From a virus (lineage: Duplodnaviria > Heunggongvirae > Uroviricota > Caudoviricetes), in the IMG/VR virus record IMGVR_UViG_2648501437_000013: a stretch of 34,339 bases of DNA; one strand, 5' to 3'. Below are positions 1,706-24,401 of this stretch, piece after piece. How positions within the stretch are numbered: the first letter of the stretch is position 1; each line of letters begins with the position of its first letter. The notes under the pieces were generated by a model, which saw nothing but the letters and a program-made list of their open reading frames with translations, did no database searches and was not told where the DNA came from. The position numbers and the translations under genes are program-made.

Positions 1706-2299
1706 CTAAGCAGCCTTCTTTGATGGTCTTTTTTTCCTGACCACATTCGCAGGATCATACCCTCCCAGACTTTTCATGACGTCCAAAGGGATCTTGCTTA
1801 TAGAGTGCCCAGCGTCCTGACAGAATCCTCGAAAAACAACGAGCATACTGCCACCGGGGTTGATGTTTACTTCTACCTGACCCAAATTGACGTCAGGCTC
1901 GACAAACGCTACGCGGCCACCAGACAGAATAATCGTCTCATTCGCATACTCTGTTGCACGCTCATACCACTTTGTATCGAGGGATTGAGGAATTAGAATC
2001 ACTGTTGTAACTCCGCGAGCCTGCTCACGTATAGCAGCATCAATCCAGGGGGAGATTTTGGAGTAGGGTGGATTGAGGAAGGCAATTGTACCTGGCTGTC
2101 CCCATTCAGATTTCAAAGCATCACGCTCAATGCCTATGAAATTAGGCAGCTTTGCGTTGTCCTTGTTGCAGGCAACGTCAACATCAAATGTCACTCCAAG
2201 ATAACGTTGAATGGCAGAAAACAGCCAATCAGGTGTTCTCCAGAGGTCACGAAGAGAGTTGTCGCGCTTTCGCTGTTTGATTTTTTCGGCTGCAATCAT
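1706..2299 (-). CDS. DNA N6-adenine methyltransferase, phage Dam family
   Basis: WRTPDWLF, FDVDVACN and FLNPPYS motifs typical of the phage N6-adenine MTase family (NPPY catalytic motif). Confidence 0.8.
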   Translation of the reverse strand: MIAAEKIKQRKRDNSLRDLWRTPDWLFSAIQRYLGVTFDVDVACNKDNAKLPNFIGIERDALKSEWGQPGTIAFLNPPYSKISPWIDAAIREQARGVTTVILIPQSLDTKWYERATEYANETIILSGGRVAFVEPDVNLGQVEVNINPGGSMLVVFRGFCQDAGHSISKIPLDVMKSLGGYDPANVVRKKRPSKKAA

Positions 2300-2310
2300 C
2301 TTCTTTCTCG

Positions 2311-2330
2311 ATAGGTAAGTGATTACCTAT
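2311..2330. promoter_or_regulatory. 20-bp palindrome ATAGGTAAGTGATTACCTAT (8-bp arms, 4-bp spacer), 12 nt upstream of the MTase ATG
   Basis: Perfect inverted repeat; member of a motif family recurring at heads of transcription units in this window. Confidence 0.5.
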
Positions 2331-2363
2331 TTTTGCATTTAATTTTATGTATGGCAATCAAAT

Positions 2364-2440
2364 AAAACGCGCCAGAAATGCGAACAAGAAGCTCTCTGGC
2401 GCGTTTTTGTGGTGCTGGGTATGGGTTAGCTTACCCAGCA
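2364..2440. terminator. Tandem rho-independent terminator hairpins (AAAACGCGCCAGA...TCTGGCGCGTTTT and TGCTGGGTA...TACCCAGCA)
   Basis: GC-rich inverted repeats flanked by A-run and T-run on both sides, so bidirectional; sits between gene 2482..3291 (stop) and the MTase promoter region. Confidence 0.7.
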
Positions 2441-2481
2441 CTATAAAGCTCTCTATGGGCTTTATTTTCAGTAGGGGAACG

Positions 2482-3291
2482 TCATCCAATAGTGTACTCC
2501 GCGACAAACTTCTTAACGATCGGTGATTCTTCGTTCAATGTTAGATTTCCACCGTCTCTAACAGCAATTCCTGTAGCTGGAAATACAGCCATCATTTGCC
2601 CAGCCTGAGTTGACGCAGTGTTAAGCGGATACGGTTTTTCTGGATTGCTCATTAAAGCAATCTTAATACTATTACTTGTAGCCTTCTTTTCTGTGAGAAG
2701 GTGTCTCATGGAAATTACCGTGTAAACACTAATATCTGGACCTCCGCTAAACCAATTAAGAAGGTTTAATATCTTATCCTTTGCTTTGACAGGCGCGTTT
2801 TCGTAAGCGTCTAAGAAAATATCTTTTTCTAAGCCTGCTTTATTGAAAAACAAATAATCTTTATCACTTAAAGTAAAACGAGGACCTCTTGCAGTACGAG
2901 CTTTTTTATTTGTATTGCTATCATTTGACTGTTGAACTTTTAATTCATCATTAACCTCAACACACTCTTCAACCTCAATAAATCCCAATTGTTCTGGCTC
3001 GTTTTCGGCAGATTCAACACTTTCAGCCTTAATTACGTTTATAGGCTCATGAGCTAACTCCAACTCATTTAAAGCGGAGCTGAAATCACCTGCTTTTTCT
3101 TCATTGAACAGTTCTTCGGCAACATCATCAGAACTCATGGCTACGCCAGCATCGAGGCCGAGAAGCAGATCGTCAATATCATCAGTATTTTCAACCTGTG
3201 CAGCTTTTTTTACTGGTTCATCAAGTGATTGCAACATGGCTGTCAGCTCATCCAGATCATCATTTGTCATTACATTTTCAACCGAACTCAT
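2482..3291 (-). CDS. Hypothetical protein with acidic N-terminal half (269 aa)
   Basis: Long intact ORF in operon orientation; D/E-rich N-terminus; no recognised catalytic motif. Confidence 0.5.
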   Translation of the reverse strand: MSSVENVMTNDDLDELTAMLQSLDEPVKKAAQVENTDDIDDLLLGLDAGVAMSSDDVAEELFNEEKAGDFSSALNELELAHEPINVIKAESVESAENEPEQLGFIEVEECVEVNDELKVQQSNDSNTNKKARTARGPRFTLSDKDYLFFNKAGLEKDIFLDAYENAPVKAKDKILNLLNWFSGGPDISVYTVISMRHLLTEKKATSNSIKIALMSNPEKPYPLNTASTQAGQMMAVFPATGIAVRDGGNLTLNEESPIVKKFVAEYTIG

Positions 3292-3414
3292 GTAAGTCTC
3301 CTTCTGTTTAGTTGCATTTGCGTTTCGATGGCTACATTTTGACTAAACCTATCAGGCGGAAAAGTATTAAATACAGGCAGGAAATGATTGAAAGGCGACT
3401 GTTCTTTAAAAGAA

Positions 3415-3450
3415 AGCCTACTTTAAACTTTTTAAAGTAGGCTTTTGTTT
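3415..3450. terminator. Rho-independent terminator hairpin (AGCCTACTTTAAA / TTTAAAGTAGGCT) with T-run
   Basis: 12-13 bp perfect inverted repeat immediately downstream of the exonuclease stop codon, T-rich on both flanks. Confidence 0.6.
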
Positions 3451-3998
3451 TACACAATTTCAGAGGGTAATTTAAAAAATCCGTACTTATTACGTGCCTT
3501 AAAGAAGCATTGCATCATTAAGTTTGTGTCATATAAGGCACTATGTGCTTTGGCATGATCGTATATAAAGCCAAGAGAGAAGGCCAACTCTTCAAGGCGG
3601 GGACGTTTACCGTCTTCTGTGGCCCACAGGGAAAATAGAGTGTCAATCAATGGGATGTCTGGAAGCGAAAAACCGTAACTTTTCAGCTCATGCCTAATAA
3701 ACGGAATATCGAACGCTTCGCCGTTGTGGGCTATCCAAATATCGGAAGAAGAGAGATACGAAGCGACAGATGAAGCGTGATCGGCTAGTAACGGCTCGGC
3801 GGCTAAATCTTCAAGACTGATGCCGTGTACCGCTTGCGCTTTCGGATCGATACTGCGACGCGGGTTGAACCGCATTACAAAACTATCAACCATTGTCTGT
3901 GTCTCAATTTCGTACTTCACCATTGCGATTTCAATGATTTTATGGCCTGAGAGGAAATCAAGACCTGTTGATTCGATGTCCACCCCTGTAGCAATCAC
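3450..3998 (-). CDS. DnaQ-like DEDDh 3'-5' exonuclease (Pol III epsilon-like proofreading exonuclease)
   Basis: Exo I (VDIESTGL), Exo II (HNGEAFDIPF) and Exo III (HSALYD) motifs in canonical order. Confidence 0.75.
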   Translation of the reverse strand: MIATGVDIESTGLDFLSGHKIIEIAMVKYEIETQTMVDSFVMRFNPRRSIDPKAQAVHGISLEDLAAEPLLADHASSVASYLSSSDIWIAHNGEAFDIPFIRHELKSYGFSLPDIPLIDTLFSLWATEDGKRPRLEELAFSLGFIYDHAKAHSALYDTNLMMQCFFKARNKYGFFKLPSEIV

Positions 3999-4789
3999 TT
4001 TTTATCTCCTTTTACTGGTCGTTTGGACGGTGTGAAGATGGCAGCTTCAACATCCCACCCCCTCAAAATTCGCTGCGAGATAATGGTCGCAGTCAAGCCA
4101 ACCTCTCTAGCCCATTCGGTAATTCGCTGAGTTCTGCCGCGACACTCGATCAGACGCTTACTATCTCGGTTGGCATACGTGTCGACGCTGGCGTTAAGCG
4201 CGCGATCTAATGGCCACCCTTTCTTGATTCGATAGTGAAGAGTTGATGTCTGAATCCCGGCTCTTTTAGCCCATTGTGAGAGAGTCAGCTTTTCCCCCTT
4301 ATGCTCCAAAATTAAGTTTGAACGCGTGTTATTGGCCTGTTCTTCAAAAGTCGCCCATCTGCAATTTTCAGGTTCGTAGTCACCATTCACATCTTTGCGA
4401 TCAAGAGACATCCCCTCTGGTCGCTCTCCCATGTCAGCATAAAAGTTTTCAAATATTTGCCACCGCTCGCAGACTTTGATACCTCGGCCGCCATACCACT
4501 TATAGGCGTGATGGGTTGGTTTTTCACATCGTTCCCGCATACCCAGCCATATACGATAAATTGGCGTTTTACTCATACCATGAGGCTTTACGCTACGGCG
4601 ATGTGCGTTGTAGACACAGCCACACGATATTGTCGCCCCGTGATTTAGCTTCCCGTAACTAACCAGGCAGGTGTTGCCGCAATCGCAGATGCAATCCCAA
4701 AGTCGCCCTTGTTTGTTTGAAATACCGGAATATTTAAGTGCAACCAACTTTCCAAAACGTTTACCTGTTATGTCTACCGGTTGTCCCAT
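3995..4789 (-). CDS. HNH-like (degenerate) homing-endonuclease-like DNA-binding protein with N-terminal Cys cluster and two C-terminal HTH-like repeats
   Basis: Cys-rich N-terminus (CICDCG...SCGC); YGGRGIKVCERW and LDRKDVNGDYEPENCRWATFEEQANN resemble the NxRWAT..EN tail of HNH_3-type endonucleases; repeats LTLSQWAKRAGIQTSTLHYRIKKGW and QRITEWAREVGLTATIISQRILRGW look like HTH modules. Function assignment from memory only. Confidence 0.45.
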   Translation of the reverse strand: MGQPVDITGKRFGKLVALKYSGISNKQGRLWDCICDCGNTCLVSYGKLNHGATISCGCVYNAHRRSVKPHGMSKTPIYRIWLGMRERCEKPTHHAYKWYGGRGIKVCERWQIFENFYADMGERPEGMSLDRKDVNGDYEPENCRWATFEEQANNTRSNLILEHKGEKLTLSQWAKRAGIQTSTLHYRIKKGWPLDRALNASVDTYANRDSKRLIECRGRTQRITEWAREVGLTATIISQRILRGWDVEAAIFTPSKRPVKGDKK

Positions 4790-4798
4790 TACTACTCC

Positions 4799-5218
4799 TT
4801 ACAACTTCTTAGCGCCCTTAAGTAGTGCGCTACGTACAAATTGAGCCGCTTTTTTCAAAGTTTCTTCACTGGTTTCACAGACAATCGGATCTTTCCACTT
4901 ACCTGACACAGTGTTGAGAATATTGATTTGGTTGCTATCCAGACAAACAGAGATATAAAGCACCGTGCCACCAGCCAGCATCAAATGCATAGGAAACAGA
5001 GGCTTTTTACTGCCTTCACTGAACTGAGACATGGCGATGTTAATGGCTTCACCCACTTGTGTACCAACAAGCCCCTGCGCAGTTTCGAATATGGCACGAA
5101 TAGCCAGACGAGCCTCTCGATCGCTCATAAGCGACCGGGAATGTTCGTCCGCTACACGAATCAAAGCCTCTGTTGTTTTCCGATCCAGTTCATCTTCAAG
5201 CAACATTTCACTAAACAT
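4799..5218 (-). CDS. Hypothetical protein (139 aa)
   Basis: Intact ORF in operon; no recognised motif. Confidence 0.45.
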   Translation of the reverse strand: MFSEMLLEDELDRKTTEALIRVADEHSRSLMSDREARLAIRAIFETAQGLVGTQVGEAINIAMSQFSEGSKKPLFPMHLMLAGGTVLYISVCLDSNQINILNTVSGKWKDPIVCETSEETLKKAAQFVRSALLKGAKKL

Positions 5219-5279
5219 TTTTTATCCTTAACCCATTTTGAGAGTTTTATTGTCGCAATGTAGAAGAGGCGAACAATTT

Positions 5280-5924
5280 CTAATGAACGGTCACTCGGCC
5301 ACAGAACCGGTTTTCTATCTTTTCTACAGCGTTATCTAGCATTCTCATCACTGATCTGGCTCTTGCTTCAACCGTGCGATATCGGTTGGAAACGACGAAG
5401 GTTTGCAGATCTCCCCTTTGCGGATGCAGGTGAATTTTTGTCAGTTCCCCGCACATCAACGCATCAATACGAGCAACATACAGACGGTCTAATGATGCTC
5501 GTTGTGATCGCAAGTAATCTCGCTCTGAGAGAGCGACTCCCGGGCGTAAGCCAGCAATGGCGTTAAAGTTTGAAATGGCAGTTTTGTGGCAAAACTTTTC
5601 GATATCGAGGGCTAACTCAATACACCGCTCTTCATTTGTATGGCCGACCAAATCCAACGTGTAGGCCATAACATCAGCAGGTGTGCGATCGATAACAAAG
5701 CCTTCAACACCACGCGTAAGTAGCTCTATGTGCTTTGCTATTTCCATTTGAATCTGAAGCCGCTCATATAGAGGCATAGACTCACCTACTCGAACACCGA
5801 GGCGGCTCATCAAACTTCCGACACCAGCATCCACGTAAGGGATTCCGTAATGTTTGTCGATATATTTAGCCAGGGTTGTTTTCCCACTGCCCTGAGCACC
5901 AGTGATCCCAATCCGGTAATCCAT
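5280..5924 (-). CDS. P-loop nucleotide kinase, thymidylate-kinase-like
   Basis: Walker A GAQGSGKTT near N-terminus followed by VIDRTPADVMAYT, resembling the DRY/AYQ region of dTMP kinases; start overlaps the DHFR stop. Confidence 0.5.
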   Translation of the reverse strand: MDYRIGITGAQGSGKTTLAKYIDKHYGIPYVDAGVGSLMSRLGVRVGESMPLYERLQIQMEIAKHIELLTRGVEGFVIDRTPADVMAYTLDLVGHTNEERCIELALDIEKFCHKTAISNFNAIAGLRPGVALSERDYLRSQRASLDRLYVARIDALMCGELTKIHLHPQRGDLQTFVVSNRYRTVEARARSVMRMLDNAVEKIENRFCGRVTVH

Positions 5925-6400
5925 TACGACCTTCTGTATACGATCTGCGAAAAGCCAGGCTCTTCCTCGCTGGCTCGTTGGGTATAAGCTGTTTCAACAG
6001 ACACAAAGCCTAAGTTACGCATCATGCTTGCCGGGAAGAATGCATCAGCGTTTGGTACATCAACGCCGATGTGGGAGAGCCAAATCTCTTCAACATGCGG
6101 CATGAATAGCGAGTAAATTTGTTCCCCGCCAATCACCCACACAGGCTCTGGTAATCGCAACACATCATCCACACCAGCAGGGTAGAATCCATTTGGTACA
6201 AAGCCATGAGAGCGCGTCAAAACGAGATTATGACGCTCTGGAAGAGGGCGTTTGAGACTTTCCATCGTTTTACGTCCCATAACGACAGTGGCGTTTTTGG
6301 TGAGTCTCTTAAATAGCTTCAGATCGGTAGAGCAACGCCAGGGCAGTTCGTTCGCTATACCGATCTCATAATTACGGCCAACAGCAGCTATCATCTTCAT
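5924..6400 (-). CDS. folA: Dihydrofolate reductase
   Basis: 158 aa; IAAVGRNYEIG...LPW, GRKT, VIGGEQIY motifs; GAGGTG RBS; sits next to thyA as in phage dTMP modules. Confidence 0.8.
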   Translation of the reverse strand: MKMIAAVGRNYEIGIANELPWRCSTDLKLFKRLTKNATVVMGRKTMESLKRPLPERHNLVLTRSHGFVPNGFYPAGVDDVLRLPEPVWVIGGEQIYSLFMPHVEEIWLSHIGVDVPNADAFFPASMMRNLGFVSVETAYTQRASEEEPGFSQIVYRRS

Positions 6401-23327: not shown

Positions 23328-24401
23328 TTACTCTTCTACTGACTCGGTGGGGTTGTCTTTTGCTCTTCGGTCGTCGATTGCCTGCAAAGCCGCAATGATT
23401 TCAGCCAGTGGCTTCTCCCGATACATCTCGACGATCTGCGATTTGGTGTATTTCTTGTCACCAATTTCAACTCGCCCGCTGGCGTTCTTTGGCAGGTATC
23501 CTTCTTCCAGCATGTACTCGACGAGCGATTCGATAACGTCGAGGCCACGAGTAGGATCGAAGTAGAATTTCCAGGTGCATTTGCCATACGGTGGTGCAAC
23601 TTTGTTTTTGATGCATTCTGCGCCTACGTCCTGGCCGATCTTCTCTTTACCATCCTTCATCACCGATGCACCAAGACGGATACGTACAGAAGCGTAGAAC
23701 TTCGGTGAATCTCCACCTGGCGACGTAGTAGGGTCGCCAAACATTACACCGATTTTTGTGCGAACCTGATTCAAGAAGATGATGCAGGCGTTGTATTTGC
23801 GTGCCCACAAAGCCAGAGTAGGGAAGTTCGCACTCGTCGCACGAGCCAGTGCCGTATTGTCGTTCATGTTTAGCTGATCTTTGTCTTTGGCAGTGCCTTC
23901 AGCCATCTTTTCGAACTTCTCGGCTTTGGAGTTCGGAACCATAGACGCAAGAGAGTCAGCCACGATACAGATTGGTGCTGATTCGGGGATAAGCTCTTCA
24001 TCACGAACCAATTTAAGTATTGTGCCGATCAACTCTACAGAGTCTTCGAAGGTATCTGGCTGCTTGTATACCCACTGACCGTCATCCTCATCTGCGTTCA
24101 GGCCATTGGCGACAGCCAGGCCAACGTCAAAACTGTTTTCATGATCGAGGAATACCGCCAGACCATCTTGTTTTTGAGCGGAGATCATCGCTGCTGTTGC
24201 AAGGAACGTTTTCCCTGCACTTGGAGGACCGAATACTTCGACGATACGACCACATGGGAAGCCGCCATCGTAACGACCAGAAATAGCTTTGTTTAACGGT
24301 GGAAAGCCTGTATCAATCCAATGAGTTACTTTCTGAATTTCGTCGTTGCTACCGATTTTCTTTTTCAGAGCAAGTGCCAGTGCGGATTTTCCTTTTGCCA
24401 T
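23328..24401 (-). CDS. RecA-superfamily recombinase (UvsX/RecA-like)
   Basis: Walker A VEVFGPPSAGKTF, Walker B-like VFLDHENSFD; ~357 aa as for RecA/UvsX. Confidence 0.8.
   Translation of the reverse strand: MAKGKSALALALKKKIGSNDEIQKVTHWIDTGFPPLNKAISGRYDGGFPCGRIVEVFGPPSAGKTFLATAAMISAQKQDGLAVFLDHENSFDVGLAVANGLNADEDDGQWVYKQPDTFEDSVELIGTILKLVRDEELIPESAPICIVADSLASMVPNSKAEKFEKMAEGTAKDKDQLNMNDNTALARATSANFPTLALWARKYNACIIFLNQVRTKIGVMFGDPTTSPGGDSPKFYASVRIRLGASVMKDGKEKIGQDVGAECIKNKVAPPYGKCTWKFYFDPTRGLDVIESLVEYMLEEGYLPKNASGRVEIGDKKYTKSQIVEMYREKPLAEIIAALQAIDDRRAKDNPTESVEE

What the first reader, a model, noticed from the sequence alone, without database searches (positions are those of the whole stretch)
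3995..4789. Degenerate HNH-like, Cys-rich DNA-binding protein embedded in the nucleotide-metabolism operon
The protein combines an N-terminal Cys cluster, an NCRWAT..EQ..N segment reminiscent of the C-terminal half of HNH_3 nucleases (but without the upstream His pair), and two HTH-like repeats. It is translationally coupled (ATGA) to the DnaQ-like exonuclease gene. It may be a domesticated homing-endonuclease derivative acting as a regulator or nicking enzyme; free-standing homing endonucleases often invade such modules in phages.
Basis: partly seen in the sequence, partly recalled or inferred. Interest (0 to 1): 0.5.

Follow-up and report, generated by a model that had tools for sequence, protein, structure and literature searches.

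The report
Mobile PacI-type homing endonuclease gene
The gene is most likely a selfish, free-standing homing endonuclease of the PacI type (an HNH-superfamily nuclease that uses Arg/Tyr instead of the usual His) that has copied itself, together with about 370 bp of the neighbouring exonuclease gene, into a minority of SSU5-like phage-plasmids; this is an ordinary kind of element, but it is seen here with an unusually clean footprint.

Summary
The ORF is real: window 3995-4789, minus strand, 264 aa. The described features are present, except that the overlap with the exonuclease gene is GTGA, not ATGA.

It is not a degenerate or domesticated HNH.
- It matches PHROG 374 "HNH endonuclease" (E=2e-79).
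- No Pfam or NCBIfam model covers its core, and the core family is very large (114,189 representative clusters).
- It shares PacI's active-site string, D-R-x-D-x4-Y-x-P-x-N-x-R-x-A, in which His is replaced and a Tyr acts as base.
- 87 of 88 single-domain relatives keep [DE]-R-Y-N-[NH].

The gene behaves as a mobile element.
- It is present in 8 of 204 E. coli genomes that carry the locus and in 105 of 278 Klebsiella plasmids. It was not found in Salmonella, Enterobacter or Citrobacter relatives.
- It sits exactly between the Shine-Dalgarno sequence and the start codon of the DnaQ-like exonuclease gene.
- In two divergent backbones it arrives with the same foreign tract (window ~3621-4793).
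- HEG-less hybrid alleles keep part of that tract.
- dN/dS is 0.083.
- Homologues lie inside DNA-polymerase inteins.

Verdict: a new member of a known kind. No nuclease activity was tested.

The parts
3995..4789 (-). Coding sequence of the 264-aa free-standing homing-endonuclease-like protein (PacI-type beta-beta-alpha-metal nuclease with DNA-binding modules).
   Evidence: ORF list. PHROG 374 'HNH endonuclease' E=2e-79. The identical protein is in NCBI as 'hypothetical protein', plasmid, E. coli. dN/dS is 0.083 against the Klebsiella copy.
4610..4771 (-). N-terminal Cys-rich small beta-barrel / zinc-ribbon-like module (residues ~7-60: GxRFGxL...WxCxCxCG...SCGC). It occurs in one or two copies in relatives.
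4316..4588 (-). Catalytic core domain (residues ~68-158), with no Pfam or NCBIfam model. Probable structural Zn ligands are H70, C88, C107 and C143 (inferred from conservation only).
4325..4411 (-). Beta-beta-alpha-metal motif: strand 1 is S-L-D130-R131; the omega loop 132-142 carries Y138; strand 2 is C-R-W-A; the helix carries N154. Proposed roles: D130 and N154 bind the metal, Y138 is the base or nucleophile, N142 is structural.
   Evidence: AF2 secondary structure E128-131, E143-146, H148-153. Same string and spacing as PacI D92-R93..D95..Y100..P102..N104..R106..A108. Among 459 domain copies: R131 97%, N142 98%, Y138 91%, D/E130 78%, N154 80%. The roles of the PacI residues come from PMC5714182 and PMC4081073.
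4190..4312 (-). HTH-like DNA-binding repeat 1 (residues ~160-200).
   Evidence: AF2: hairpin 160-169 plus helices 170-177, 181-189 and 194-199. Weak PVL_ORF50 and HTH_8 matches. Repeat-to-repeat BLASTP E=2e-8.
4031..4153 (-). HTH-like DNA-binding repeat 2 (residues ~213-253).
   Evidence: AF2: hairpin 213-222 plus helices 223-230, 234-242 and 247-252.. Relatives carry one to three such repeats.
4794..4803 (-). Upstream insertion junction. The Shine-Dalgarno sequence (AAGGAG, 4795-4800) serves the exonuclease gene in empty sites and now serves the endonuclease gene. The backbone sequence resumes at 4804.
   Evidence: Empty site ...TAAGGAGT|TCTGATGACAACG...; occupied site ...TAAGGAGT|AGTAATGGGACAA.... 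Breakpoint between 4793 and 4804 in both the E. coli and the Klebsiella backbone.
3995..4011 (-). Downstream junction. The last codons of the endonuclease gene (AAA GGA GAT AAA AAG TGA) supply a new Shine-Dalgarno sequence (4006-4011) and a GTG start (3998-3996) for the exonuclease gene; the overlap is GTGA.
   Evidence: Sequence read directly. PGAP annotates the same 549-bp exonuclease CDS. No promoter-like or terminator-like site on the minus strand in 3300-5400.
3621..3994 (-). Co-transferred flank: the first ~125 codons of the DnaQ-like exonuclease gene, of foreign origin, carried with the endonuclease gene. Inferred to contain, or lie next to, the cleavage site in HEG-less alleles.
   Evidence: Over this tract the window is 93-97% identical to the Klebsiella HEG+ element but only 48-78% to the E. 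coli HEG-less backbone, which is otherwise 98-100% identical. The same tract is found in the Klebsiella backbone. Informative-site runs. dS of the tract (0.18) is close to dS of the HEG (0.14).
3603..3628 (-). Conserved patch (codons for LWATEDGKRP of the exonuclease) where the distal crossover lies in all four recombinant alleles examined.
   Evidence: Alignment of six alleles. Breakpoints at 3609/3629 (window, L004) and 3600-3609/3621 (L006, L012).
3450..3998 (-). DnaQ-like 3'-5' exonuclease gene, the host gene next to which the element is inserted. Its ExoI motif (D-I-E) starts 6 codons after the junction.
   Evidence: Pfam RNase_T E=1.3e-22; NCBIfam DnaQ models. The N-terminus is MTTIVAGIDIES in empty sites and (V)IATGVDIES in occupied ones.

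Best explanation
The gene is a free-standing homing endonuclease gene (HEG).

The protein is modular. It has an N-terminal Cys-rich beta-barrel, a PacI-type beta-beta-alpha-metal nuclease core and two HTH-like repeats that give an extended DNA-binding surface. In the core, the canonical HNH histidine is replaced by an invariant Arg (R131). An invariant Tyr (Y138) in the omega loop is positioned to act as base or nucleophile. D130 and N154 are the likely ligands of the catalytic metal.

Proposed mechanism, inferred and not shown:
1. A HEG-carrying and a HEG-less SSU5-like phage-plasmid meet in one cell.
2. The enzyme nicks or cuts the HEG-less allele in or near the 5' third of the DnaQ-like exonuclease gene.
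3. Recombinational repair copies the HEG, together with the adjacent ~370 bp of exonuclease sequence, from the donor.
4. Short repair tracts leave HEG-less 'hybrid' alleles that carry only part of the donor's exonuclease sequence.

The insertion sits exactly between the exonuclease gene's ribosome-binding site and its start codon. The HEG's own 3' end provides a replacement ribosome-binding site and a GTG start, so the host operon keeps working.
For: Family and fold:
- PHROG 374 and 3377 'HNH endonuclease', E=2e-79 and 1e-70.
- AF2 model at pLDDT 90 with a beta-beta-alpha unit at residues 128-153.
- The PacI sequence was verified. It shares the string D-R-x-D-x4-Y-x-P-x-N-x-R-x-A in the same register as hhalign (27% identity over ~100 columns, E=0.003-0.008).
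- PacI is an active enzyme in which Tyr replaces the His base (PMC5714182 and PMC4081073).

Selection on the site:
- 87 of 88 single-domain relatives keep [DE]-R-Y-N-[NH]. All but 9 of the 176 multi-domain relatives keep at least one intact copy.
- dN/dS is 0.083, from 22 synonymous and 7 non-synonymous changes.

Mobility:
- The closest phages (Cyrano, CMS-2020a, PhiR41_1, SSU5) lack the gene, and in the three whose annotation was read (Cyrano, SSU5 and an E. coli plasmid) the two neighbouring genes lie 9 bp apart.
- The gene is present in 8 of 204 E. coli genomes with the locus.
- It is present in 112 PLSDB plasmids, 105 Klebsiella and 7 Escherichia. The locus itself is in 278 Klebsiella plasmids and in 168 Escherichia, 87 Enterobacter, 42 Salmonella and 19 Citrobacter plasmids.
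- The same foreign tract, ~3621-4793, is found in two backbones that are only 50-80% identical around it.
- HEG-less hybrids retain the tract as far as 3881 in E. coli (27 genomes) or 3828 in Klebsiella.

Independent association with homing:
- Homologous ORFs are nested inside the DNA-polymerase intein annotated in Salmonella phage Ent3 and inside the equivalent insertion (ends CLAKGT...VHN|C, not annotated as an intein) of the APSE-7 polymerase.
Against: - No nuclease activity, target site or homing cross was tested. All mechanistic steps are inferred.
- The statistical support for homology to PacI is weak on sequence alone (hhalign probability 5-10%). Foldseek against the PDB gave nothing significant, and profile and sequence searches of the PDB found nothing.
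- D130 is acidic in only 78% of domain copies.
- The one 'PacI-like' phage HNH tested in vivo in the literature showed no exclusion activity (PMC12724721), and whether it belongs to this family was not checked.
- Mosaicism by ordinary homologous recombination between co-resident phage-plasmids could produce similar tracts without any endonuclease.
- The occupancy counts rest on megablast detection and on redundant, partly clonal collections.
Confidence: 0.78

Rival explanations
1. Domesticated, catalytically dead HNH derivative. On this reading it acts as a sequence-specific DNA-binding regulator of the nucleotide-metabolism/replication operon.
For: - There is no His at the general-base position.
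- There are two HTH-like repeats.
- The gene is co-transcribed and start/stop-overlapped with the exonuclease gene, with no promoter of its own.
- It is under strong purifying selection.
- Dead His-Me fingers that bind DNA do exist, such as the Smad MH1 domain (PMC5714182).
Against: - The gene is absent from about 96% of E. coli and about 62% of Klebsiella elements with the same operon, and from all Salmonella, Enterobacter and Citrobacter ones detected. A regulator of a core module would not be dispensable in this way.
- It moves across backbones with a flank.
- The His-less site is the PacI arrangement, which is catalytically active, and it is kept in 87 of 88 single-domain relatives.
- Homologues sit inside inteins.
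Confidence: 0.07
2. Passenger gene. On this reading the ORF is a nuclease or DNA-binding protein of some other role, for example interference with competing phage-plasmids or defence. Its patchy, mosaic distribution would then reflect ordinary homologous recombination between co-resident SSU5-like elements, not self-promoted homing.
For: - Crossovers lie in short patches conserved between alleles, as general recombination would produce.
- These elements encode their own RecA-like recombinase and exonucleases.
- All 8 E. coli HEG+ copies look like one acquisition, at 99.2-99.7% identity.
- A HEG can double as a competition weapon, so the two readings overlap.
Against: - Within the ~2.6-3 kb compared, the only segment that crosses the E. 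coli/Klebsiella backbone divide is the one that carries this gene. This was seen in both backbones, with matching ends.
- The insertion is at a precise RBS/start junction with a built-in replacement RBS.
- Family members are embedded in inteins, which spread by homing.
Confidence: 0.12
3. Decaying remnant of a HEG. On this reading it was once active but is now inactive and is kept only because its 3' end supplies the exonuclease gene's ribosome-binding site and start codon.
For: - The exonuclease gene in occupied alleles depends on the HEG's last codons for its SD and GTG start.
- The homing cycle predicts such stages.
- HEG-less hybrids outnumber HEG+ elements in E. coli, 27 against 8.
Against: - The reading frame is intact over its full length in all copies inspected, and dN/dS is 0.083 over the whole gene, not only the 3' end.
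- All signature residues are intact.
- 105 Klebsiella copies are at 96% identity, with no truncation reported.
Confidence: 0.03

Closest known systems
R.PacI, rare-cutting type IIP restriction endonuclease (PDB 3LDY/3M7K; His-Me finger group 20 of Jablonska et al. 2017, PMC5714182)
   Same: - It has the same active-site string, D-R-x-D-x4-Y-x-P-x-N-x-R-x-A followed by an Asn in the helix, with Arg at the canonical His position and Tyr in the omega loop.
- Cys-rich zinc motifs precede the beta-beta-alpha unit, and a conserved G-H lies upstream.
   Different: - PacI is a 142-aa homodimer with an 8-bp palindromic site and no HTH modules. It has two CxxC-type Cys4 sites and only a handful of close relatives (9 found).
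- The window protein is 264 aa. It has an extra beta-barrel, two HTH repeats and a different Cys pattern (CxCxC...CxC; C88, C107, C143), and it belongs to a family of more than 100,000 clusters.
- Sequence-profile support for homology is weak (probability 5-10%).
- The biological role differs: homing rather than restriction.
I-HmuI / I-BasI / I-TwoI-type phage HNH homing endonucleases (Pfam HNH_3, PF13392)
   Same: - They belong to the same superfamily and have the same lifestyle.
- They have the same modular logic, a small beta-beta-alpha-metal nuclease tethered to helix-turn-helix or other DNA-binding modules that reads a long asymmetric site.
   Different: - HNH_3 enzymes keep the D-H dyad (I-HmuI D74, H75, N96; PMC12724721), where the window protein has D-R plus Tyr.
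- No Pfam HNH model scores on this protein or on 39 relatives.
- The characterised HNH_3 enzymes are intron-encoded nickases. This gene is free-standing, and its cleavage chemistry is unknown.
Free-standing homing endonuclease genes of T4-like phages (Seg and Mob families, e.g. SegG; review PMC2988022)
   Same: - They are intergenic insertions between conserved genes of DNA and nucleotide-metabolism modules.
- They are present or absent between close relatives.
- Flanking markers are co-converted, and cleavage can occur at a distance inside the neighbouring gene. These points rest on my own knowledge of the SegG and MobE literature; the review was only listed, not read.
   Different: - The catalytic families differ: GIY-YIG for Seg and canonical HNH for Mob.
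- The host here is a temperate phage-plasmid, not a lytic T-even phage.
- Here only the genomic footprint was seen, not the cleavage.
Out-of-frame 'hidden' endonuclease genes inside in-frame insertions and inteins (ShiLan element, PMC11855218; endonuclease VII-like HEN in frame 3 of actinophage inteins, bioRxiv 10.1101/2025.01.02.630785)
   Same: Relatives of the window protein are encoded out of frame inside the DNA-polymerase inteins of Salmonella phage Ent3 and phage APSE-7. This is the same kind of nested arrangement.
   Different: The window gene itself is free-standing and not nested. The published cases involve canonical HNH or endonuclease VII-like enzymes, not this PacI-type family, as far as the passages read show.

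Membership tests
His-Me finger (beta-beta-alpha-metal / HNH) superfamily | Beta-hairpin followed by an alpha-helix that cradles one catalytic metal. | tested here: met
   [not shown]
His-Me finger (beta-beta-alpha-metal / HNH) superfamily | Metal ligands: an acidic residue at the end of strand 1 and an Asn/His in the helix; a structural Asn before strand 2. | tested here: met
   D130, N154 and N142 are present. N142 and N154 are invariant in 40 homologues. Among 459 domain copies: D/E130 78%, N142 98%, N154 80% plus 14% gaps.
His-Me finger (beta-beta-alpha-metal / HNH) superfamily | Histidine general base at the end of strand 1. | tested here: not met
   The position is R131, invariant in A1 and 97% in 459 domains. 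The superfamily has a documented exception, PacI, where Tyr takes this role (PMC5714182).
PacI-like clade (His-Me group 20) | His replaced, and a Tyr in the omega loop placed to act as base or nucleophile; motif D-R..D..Y.P.N.R.A. | tested here: met
   Window D130-R131-K-D133-VNGD-Y138-E-P140-E-N142-C-R144-W-A146, against PacI D92-R93-S-D95-SFEG-Y100-S-P102-Q-N104-A-R106-L-A108. Y138 is invariant in A1 and 91% Y / 8% F in 459 domains.
PacI-like clade (His-Me group 20) | Statistically significant sequence or profile similarity to PacI. | tested here: inconclusive
   hhalign, family profile against PacI: E=0.0084, probability 4.7%. Against a 9-sequence PacI profile: E=0.0034, probability 9.5%. 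hmmsearch and phmmer against the PDB did not return PacI. Foldseek ranked PacI 18th at E=2.5. HHpred against PDB70 could not be run.
PacI-like clade (His-Me group 20) | Two structural Cys4 zinc sites flanking the active site. | tested here: inconclusive
   Conserved Cys sets exist (C33/C35/C37/C56/C58, and C88/C107/C143 with H70).
Pfam HNH families (HNH PF01844, HNH_3 PF13392 and others) | Score above the gathering threshold against the family HMM. | tested here: not met
   No HNH-type Pfam model appears even at E<=10 for the window protein or at E<=0.01 for any of 40 family members. NCBIfam has none either.
PHROG 374 / 3377 ('HNH endonuclease', phage orthologous groups) | Significant HMM match over most of the protein. 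| tested here: met
   phrog_374 E=2.1e-79 over residues 1-256; phrog_3377 E=1.4e-70. The family name is an annotation, not a tested function.
Homing endonuclease gene (functional class) | Sporadic presence or absence at one conserved genomic site among close relatives. | tested here: met
   8 of 204 E. coli genomes with the locus. 112 PLSDB plasmids carry the gene, 105 Klebsiella and 7 Escherichia, against 278 and 168 that carry the locus. Empty sites have the two neighbouring genes 9 bp apart.
Homing endonuclease gene (functional class) | Co-conversion of flanking sequence with the gene. | tested here: met
   The foreign tract 3621/3629-4793 accompanies the gene in both the E. coli and the Klebsiella backbone. 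Partial-tract HEG-less hybrids exist in both. This is a footprint consistent with homing, not proof of it.
Homing endonuclease gene (functional class) | The encoded enzyme cleaves the HEG-less allele and spares its own. | not testable with these tools
   This needs in vitro cleavage or in vivo crosses. Sequence shows only that the occupied and empty alleles differ at many positions next to the junction.
Homing endonuclease gene (functional class) | Association of the domain with self-splicing elements (inteins or introns). | tested here: met
   Homologous ORFs lie inside the annotated DNA-polymerase intein of Salmonella phage vB_SenS-Ent3 (ORF 2348..3091 within intein 2256..3152 of L008) and inside the intein region of the APSE-7 polymerase (L009 2483..3133). 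Both are out of frame with the intein.

The most novel reading that the evidence does not exclude
The His-less 'D-R...Y...N...N' core may define one of the largest homing-endonuclease families. It has more than 100,000 sequence clusters, often occurs in 2-4 tandem copies, and has no Pfam or NCBIfam model and no solved or biochemically characterised homing member. On this reading it uses PacI-like tyrosine chemistry.

The SSU5-like phage-plasmids would then be a natural system in which the enzyme cuts at a distance inside the DnaQ-like exonuclease gene. That would leave both HEG+ alleles and frequent HEG-less, cleavage-resistant 'hybrid' alleles.
Probability: 0.4. Interest if true: 0.5.

Novelty: new member of a known kind. 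Interest (0 to 1): 0.33.

Why it matters
Annotation: PGAP calls this protein 'hypothetical' and neither Pfam nor NCBIfam covers its core, yet the core domain has 114,189 representative clusters. Recognising it as a PacI-type nuclease, and building a domain model for it, would name a very large number of phage and bacterial ORFs.

Mechanism: PacI is the only biochemically and structurally studied enzyme with this Arg/Tyr active site. Showing that a huge homing family uses the same site would make tyrosine-based beta-beta-alpha-metal catalysis a mainstream variant rather than an oddity.

Phage-plasmid biology: SSU5-like elements are common in clinical Enterobacteriaceae and carry resistance genes such as dfrA51. 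The tract mapped here shows that sequence crosses between E. coli and Klebsiella lineages at this locus. It also gives exact allele pairs (HEG+, HEG- and hybrid) for a direct homing experiment.

None of this changes the basic verdict that the element is of a well-known kind.

Tried and rejected
- Sequence and profile searches of the PDB with the protein and with the family alignment gave only chance hits: crystallins, mS23 and a pheromone lipoprotein.
- Pfam and NCBIfam gave no model for the core. The weak PVL_ORF50, HTH_8 and AsnC hits touch only the HTH repeats.
- I first assumed the tblastn hits inside phage DNA-polymerase inteins were in-frame endonuclease domains. BLASTP of the in-frame intein translations found nothing. 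ORF listing then showed that the homologues are separate out-of-frame ORFs.
- The 83%-identical copy in K. variicola plasmid CP133154.1 (L007) has 71 gaps over 831 columns and fragmented annotation. I set it aside as a likely low-quality assembly.
- I considered Enterobacter, Salmonella or Citrobacter elements as the source of the foreign exonuclease tract. They match only a ~100-bp conserved patch at ~79% identity, so the donor lineage remains unknown.
- My first estimate of Klebsiella occupancy (105/131) was an artefact of querying with E. coli-type flanks. A Klebsiella-type query gives 105/278.
- GC content does not set the gene apart from its flanks.
- The window holds no second copy of the family.
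- A literature search for the motif 'YGGRGI' found nothing relevant. The PacI structure paper itself (PMC2886031) is not held, so PacI residue roles are cited from reviews. I-PfoP3I (PMC3428280) is a canonical HNH enzyme and not this family.
- An HNH packaging factor was rejected, because the gene is far from any terminase and belongs to a different clade.
Full report
**1. What is there**

Window 3995-4789 (minus strand) is a 264-aa ORF with an ATG start preceded by AAGGAG. It lies in a long minus-strand gene array. The array encodes RNase HI, a Dam-like methyltransferase, a DnaQ-like 3'-5' exonuclease, a 139-aa protein, an AAA ATPase, DHFR, thymidylate synthase, a MazG-like protein and NrdAB.

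The window is an SSU5-like phage-plasmid. It is 98-99% identical to Escherichia phages CMS-2020a, Cyrano and PhiR41_1 and to many ~110-kb E. coli plasmids.

- a Cys cluster (C33, C35, C37, C41, C56, C58);
- N142-CRWAT, E150-Q151 and N154;
- D130-R131 where HNH enzymes have D-H;
- two HTH-like repeats.

One detail is wrong. The overlap with the exonuclease gene is GTGA (GTG start, TGA stop), not ATGA.

**2. What kind of protein it is**

Pfam and NCBIfam have no model for the core. This holds for the window protein and for 39 relatives. PGAP calls the identical protein (WP_001404446.1) hypothetical. PHROGs places it in phrog_374 and phrog_3377, 'HNH endonuclease' (E=2e-79 and 1e-70).

The family is very large. 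There were 7,776 hits among the 8,000 candidates scored. The 95-residue core alone gave 114,189 representative clusters at E<=1e-3, and many proteins carry 2-4 tandem cores.

An alignment of 40 members shows a modular build:
- one or two N-terminal 'GxRFGxL...WxCxCDCG...SCGC' units;
- the core 'HGMS.TP.Y..W..M..RC...Y..YGGRGI.VC.RW..F.NF..DMG..P.G.SLDRID..G.Y.P.NCRWAT..EQ..N';
- one to three HTH-like repeats.

Invariant residues are R87, Y99, G100, G103, C107, W110, F116, R131, Y138, N142, W145 and N154.

AlphaFold2 models are confident: pLDDT 90 for the full protein and 89 for the core alone. Residues 128-131 and 143-146 form a beta-hairpin followed by helix 148-153. This is a beta-beta-alpha-metal unit with an 11-residue omega loop that carries Y138.

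I recalled the PacI sequence and the tool confirmed it as 100% identical to 3LDY_A. The two active-site strings line up without gaps:
- PacI: V-D92-R93-S-D95-S-F-E-G-Y100-S-P102-Q-N104-A-R106-L-A108;
- window: L-D130-R131-K-D133-V-N-G-D-Y138-E-P140-E-N142-C-R144-W-A146.

hhalign finds the same register over about 100 columns at 27% identity. It also places the upstream 'SCGC' on PacI's 'CKGC' and 'HGMS' on PacI's 'EGH'. The statistics are weak, however (E=0.003-0.008, probability 5-10%).

According to Jablonska et al. (PMC5714182) and Pingoud et al. (PMC4081073), PacI lacks the catalytic His. A Tyr in the omega loop takes its role, and the metal is held by one Asp and one Asn. 'PacI-like HNH endonuclease' is already used as a class label for phage genes found by HHpred (PMC12724721).

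D130 and N154 would bind the metal, Y138 would be the base or nucleophile, N142 would be structural, and R131 sits at the old His position. These roles are assigned by analogy and were not tested.

Conservation supports a functional site. Among 459 domain copies from 264 proteins the frequencies are R131 97%, N142 98%, Y138 91% (F 8%), D/E130 78% and N154 80% with 14% gaps. 87 of 88 single-domain proteins have the full [DE]-R-Y-N-[NH] signature. Of the 176 multi-domain proteins, all but 9 keep at least one intact copy while extra copies sometimes degenerate.

**3. Evidence that it is mobile**

*Presence and absence.* In Cyrano, SSU5 and most E. coli plasmids the exonuclease gene and the 139-aa gene are adjacent with a 9-bp spacer and the ORF is missing. 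Occupancy is as follows.

| Collection | Carry the locus | Carry the gene |
|---|---|---|
| Complete E. coli genomes | 204 | 8 |
| PLSDB Klebsiella plasmids | 278 | 105 |
| PLSDB Escherichia plasmids | 168 | 7 |
| PLSDB Enterobacter plasmids | 87 | 0 |
| PLSDB Salmonella plasmids | 42 | 0 |
| PLSDB Citrobacter plasmids | 19 | 0 |

These counts depend on megablast detection and on redundant collections.

*Junctions.* The two sites read as follows.
- Empty site: ...AAGTTG TAA GGAGT|TCTG ATG ACA ACG ATT GTT GCA GGC ATC GAT ATC GAG...
- Occupied site: ...AAGTTG TAA GGAGT|AGTA ATG GGA CAA...[gene]...AAA GGA GAT AAA AAG TGA, with GTG ATT GCT ACA GGG GTG GAC ATC GAA as the new exonuclease start.

The element has taken over the exonuclease gene's Shine-Dalgarno sequence. 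It supplies a new one, plus a GTG start, from its own last codons. No promoter-like or terminator-like site lies on the minus strand nearby. The insertion is six codons upstream of the exonuclease's catalytic D-I-E motif.

*Mosaic tract.* Block-wise identity and informative-site runs give the following picture.
- The window equals the E. coli HEG-less backbone (98-100%) up to 3609 and again from 4804.
- From 3629 to 4793 it follows the Klebsiella HEG+ allele (93-98%) and is only 48-78% identical to the E. coli backbone.
- The same holds inside Klebsiella. The HEG+ plasmid L006 equals the native Klebsiella backbone L013 (93-100% per 60-bp block) except over the same interval (window-equivalent 3621-4790), where identity falls to 40-73%.

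The cassette, made of the HEG plus the first ~125 codons of a foreign exonuclease allele, is therefore foreign to both backbones. Those backbones are themselves only 50-80% identical around it. The donor lineage was not found.

The distal crossover always lies in a 25-bp patch conserved in all alleles (3603-3628, codons LWATEDGKRP).

The synonymous divergence of the HEG between the E. coli and Klebsiella copies (dS 0.14) matches that of the co-transferred flank (0.18). The rest of the exonuclease gene is saturated at synonymous sites.

*HEG-less hybrids.* 27 E. coli genomes carry the foreign tract only from 3629 to 3881 and have a native, empty junction. The figure is 35 genomes with the tract minus 8 with the gene (example L004). 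A Klebsiella counterpart (L012; roughly 27 plasmids in the 90-95% identity class) carries it from 3621 to 3828. The proximal breakpoints differ, so these are independent events.

Two explanations fit:
- loss of the gene by recombination with an empty allele;
- short repair tracts around a cut that lies inside the exonuclease gene, away from the insertion point, as I recall for T4 SegG.

The second explanation predicts that the cleavage site is within about 3630-3830. This is inference only.

*Selection.* dN/dS between the E. coli and Klebsiella copies is 0.083 (22 synonymous and 7 non-synonymous changes). All signature residues are intact.

*Inteins.* tblastn hits fall inside DNA-polymerase genes of Jerseyvirus and APSE phages. 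In Salmonella phage vB_SenS-Ent3 the 247-aa homologue (L008 2348..3091) lies within the annotated intein (2256..3152), in another reading frame. In APSE-7 a 216-aa homologue (L009 2483..3133) is likewise nested out of frame in the polymerase intein region. Both keep D-R, Y, N and N. Association with inteins is independent support for a homing role.

**4. Best explanation and rivals**

The best explanation is a free-standing PacI-type homing endonuclease gene, active now or until recently. It would spread between SSU5-like phage-plasmids by cleavage of HEG-less alleles and recombinational repair, dragging the adjacent exonuclease sequence with it (confidence about 0.78).

What is shown:
- family assignment by PHROG;
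- the predicted fold;
- motif identity with PacI;
- conservation of the site;
- patchy occupancy;
- exact junctions;
- the shared tract in two backbones;
- the hybrid alleles;
- purifying selection;
- intein-nested relatives.

What is inferred:
- catalysis, the residue roles and the zinc ligands;
- nick versus double-strand cut;
- the position of the target;
- that the tract results from endonuclease-driven repair rather than ordinary recombination.

Rivals:
- A dead, domesticated regulator (0.07). This is contradicted by dispensability and mobility.
- A passenger gene moved by ordinary recombination, perhaps serving in competition between elements (0.12). This cannot be excluded without crosses, and it overlaps with the main reading.
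- A decaying remnant kept for the ribosome-binding site it supplies (0.03). This is contradicted by dN/dS and the intact frames.

**5. Comparison with what is known, and novelty**

- It works like I-HmuI-type phage HNH homing enzymes, with a small nuclease tethered to HTH modules.
- It behaves in the genome like the T4 Seg and Mob free-standing genes.
- Its catalytic centre is that of PacI.
- It fails membership of every Pfam HNH family.
- It passes the PHROG 374 test.
- It meets the PacI motif and fold tests, but not a significance test on sequence.

It is therefore a new member of a known kind.

Three points are mildly new:
- this very large domain family has no curated model and, as far as I could find, no characterised homing member;
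- the natural footprint here is unusually clean;
- the hybrid alleles point to cleavage at a distance.

The single 'PacI-like' phage gene tested in vivo in the literature showed no exclusion activity. Whether it belongs to this family was not checked.

**6. Verdict**

Noticed in passing
L008 2348..3091 (Salmonella phage vB_SenS-Ent3, NC_024204.1) and L009 2483..3133 (phage APSE-7, LR794151.1): Homologues of the window protein (247 and 216 aa, with D-R/Y/N/N intact) are complete ORFs nested inside the DNA-polymerase inteins, in a different reading frame from the intein. The in-frame middle of each intein looks like low-complexity linker. Out-of-frame endonucleases in inteins and insertions were reported in 2025 for other nuclease types (PMC11855218; bioRxiv 10.1101/2025.01.02.630785). 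I did not find this family described in that arrangement.
   Followed up: partly
window 23328..24401 (-); compare L011 4413..6752 (NZ_CP117002.1): The window's RecA-like recombinase gene (357 aa, Pfam RecA E=2e-42) is intein-free. The same gene in a plasmid that shares the endonuclease gene at 99.7% identity (99.6% over the 1.8-kb locus) is 779 aa and contains an intein with a LAGLIDADG endonuclease. This is a second homing element that is polymorphic among these phage-plasmids.
   Followed up: partly
L004 (E. coli NZ_CP027369.1) and L012 (K. pneumoniae NZ_CP075258.1); window-equivalent 3621-3881: HEG-less 'hybrid' exonuclease alleles keep the distal part of the foreign tract but have a native 5' end and an empty junction. 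In E. coli they outnumber HEG+ elements, 27 genomes against 8. Their proximal breakpoints differ between the two backbones (3881/3890 against 3828/3867).
   Followed up: yes
family-wide (proteins P0002, P0005, P0121-P0124 and others): Many relatives carry 2-4 tandem copies of the nuclease core. About half of the two-copy proteins keep the full signature in both copies, and in most of the others one copy is degenerate. Whether tandem cores cut both strands, or the extra copies only bind DNA, is unknown.
   Followed up: partly
window 5924..6400 (-): In the near-identical RefSeq plasmid, PGAP names the DHFR gene of this module 'trimethoprim-resistant dihydrofolate reductase DfrA51'. A 2025 paper reports dfrA50 and dfrA51 in phage-plasmids (PMC12217456, listed but not read).
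   Followed up: no
window 1706..2299 (-); L010 1814..2320: The phage-type DNA N6-adenine methyltransferase gene is an intact 197-aa ORF in the window. It is annotated as frameshifted in the close relative NZ_CP117002.1.
   Followed up: no
L007 (K. variicola plasmid CP133154.1, 2501-3296): The only divergent copy of the gene in PLSDB (83% identity) has 71 gaps in 831 aligned columns, and the genes around it are fragmented. This is probably an error-rich assembly rather than a decaying copy.
   Followed up: partly
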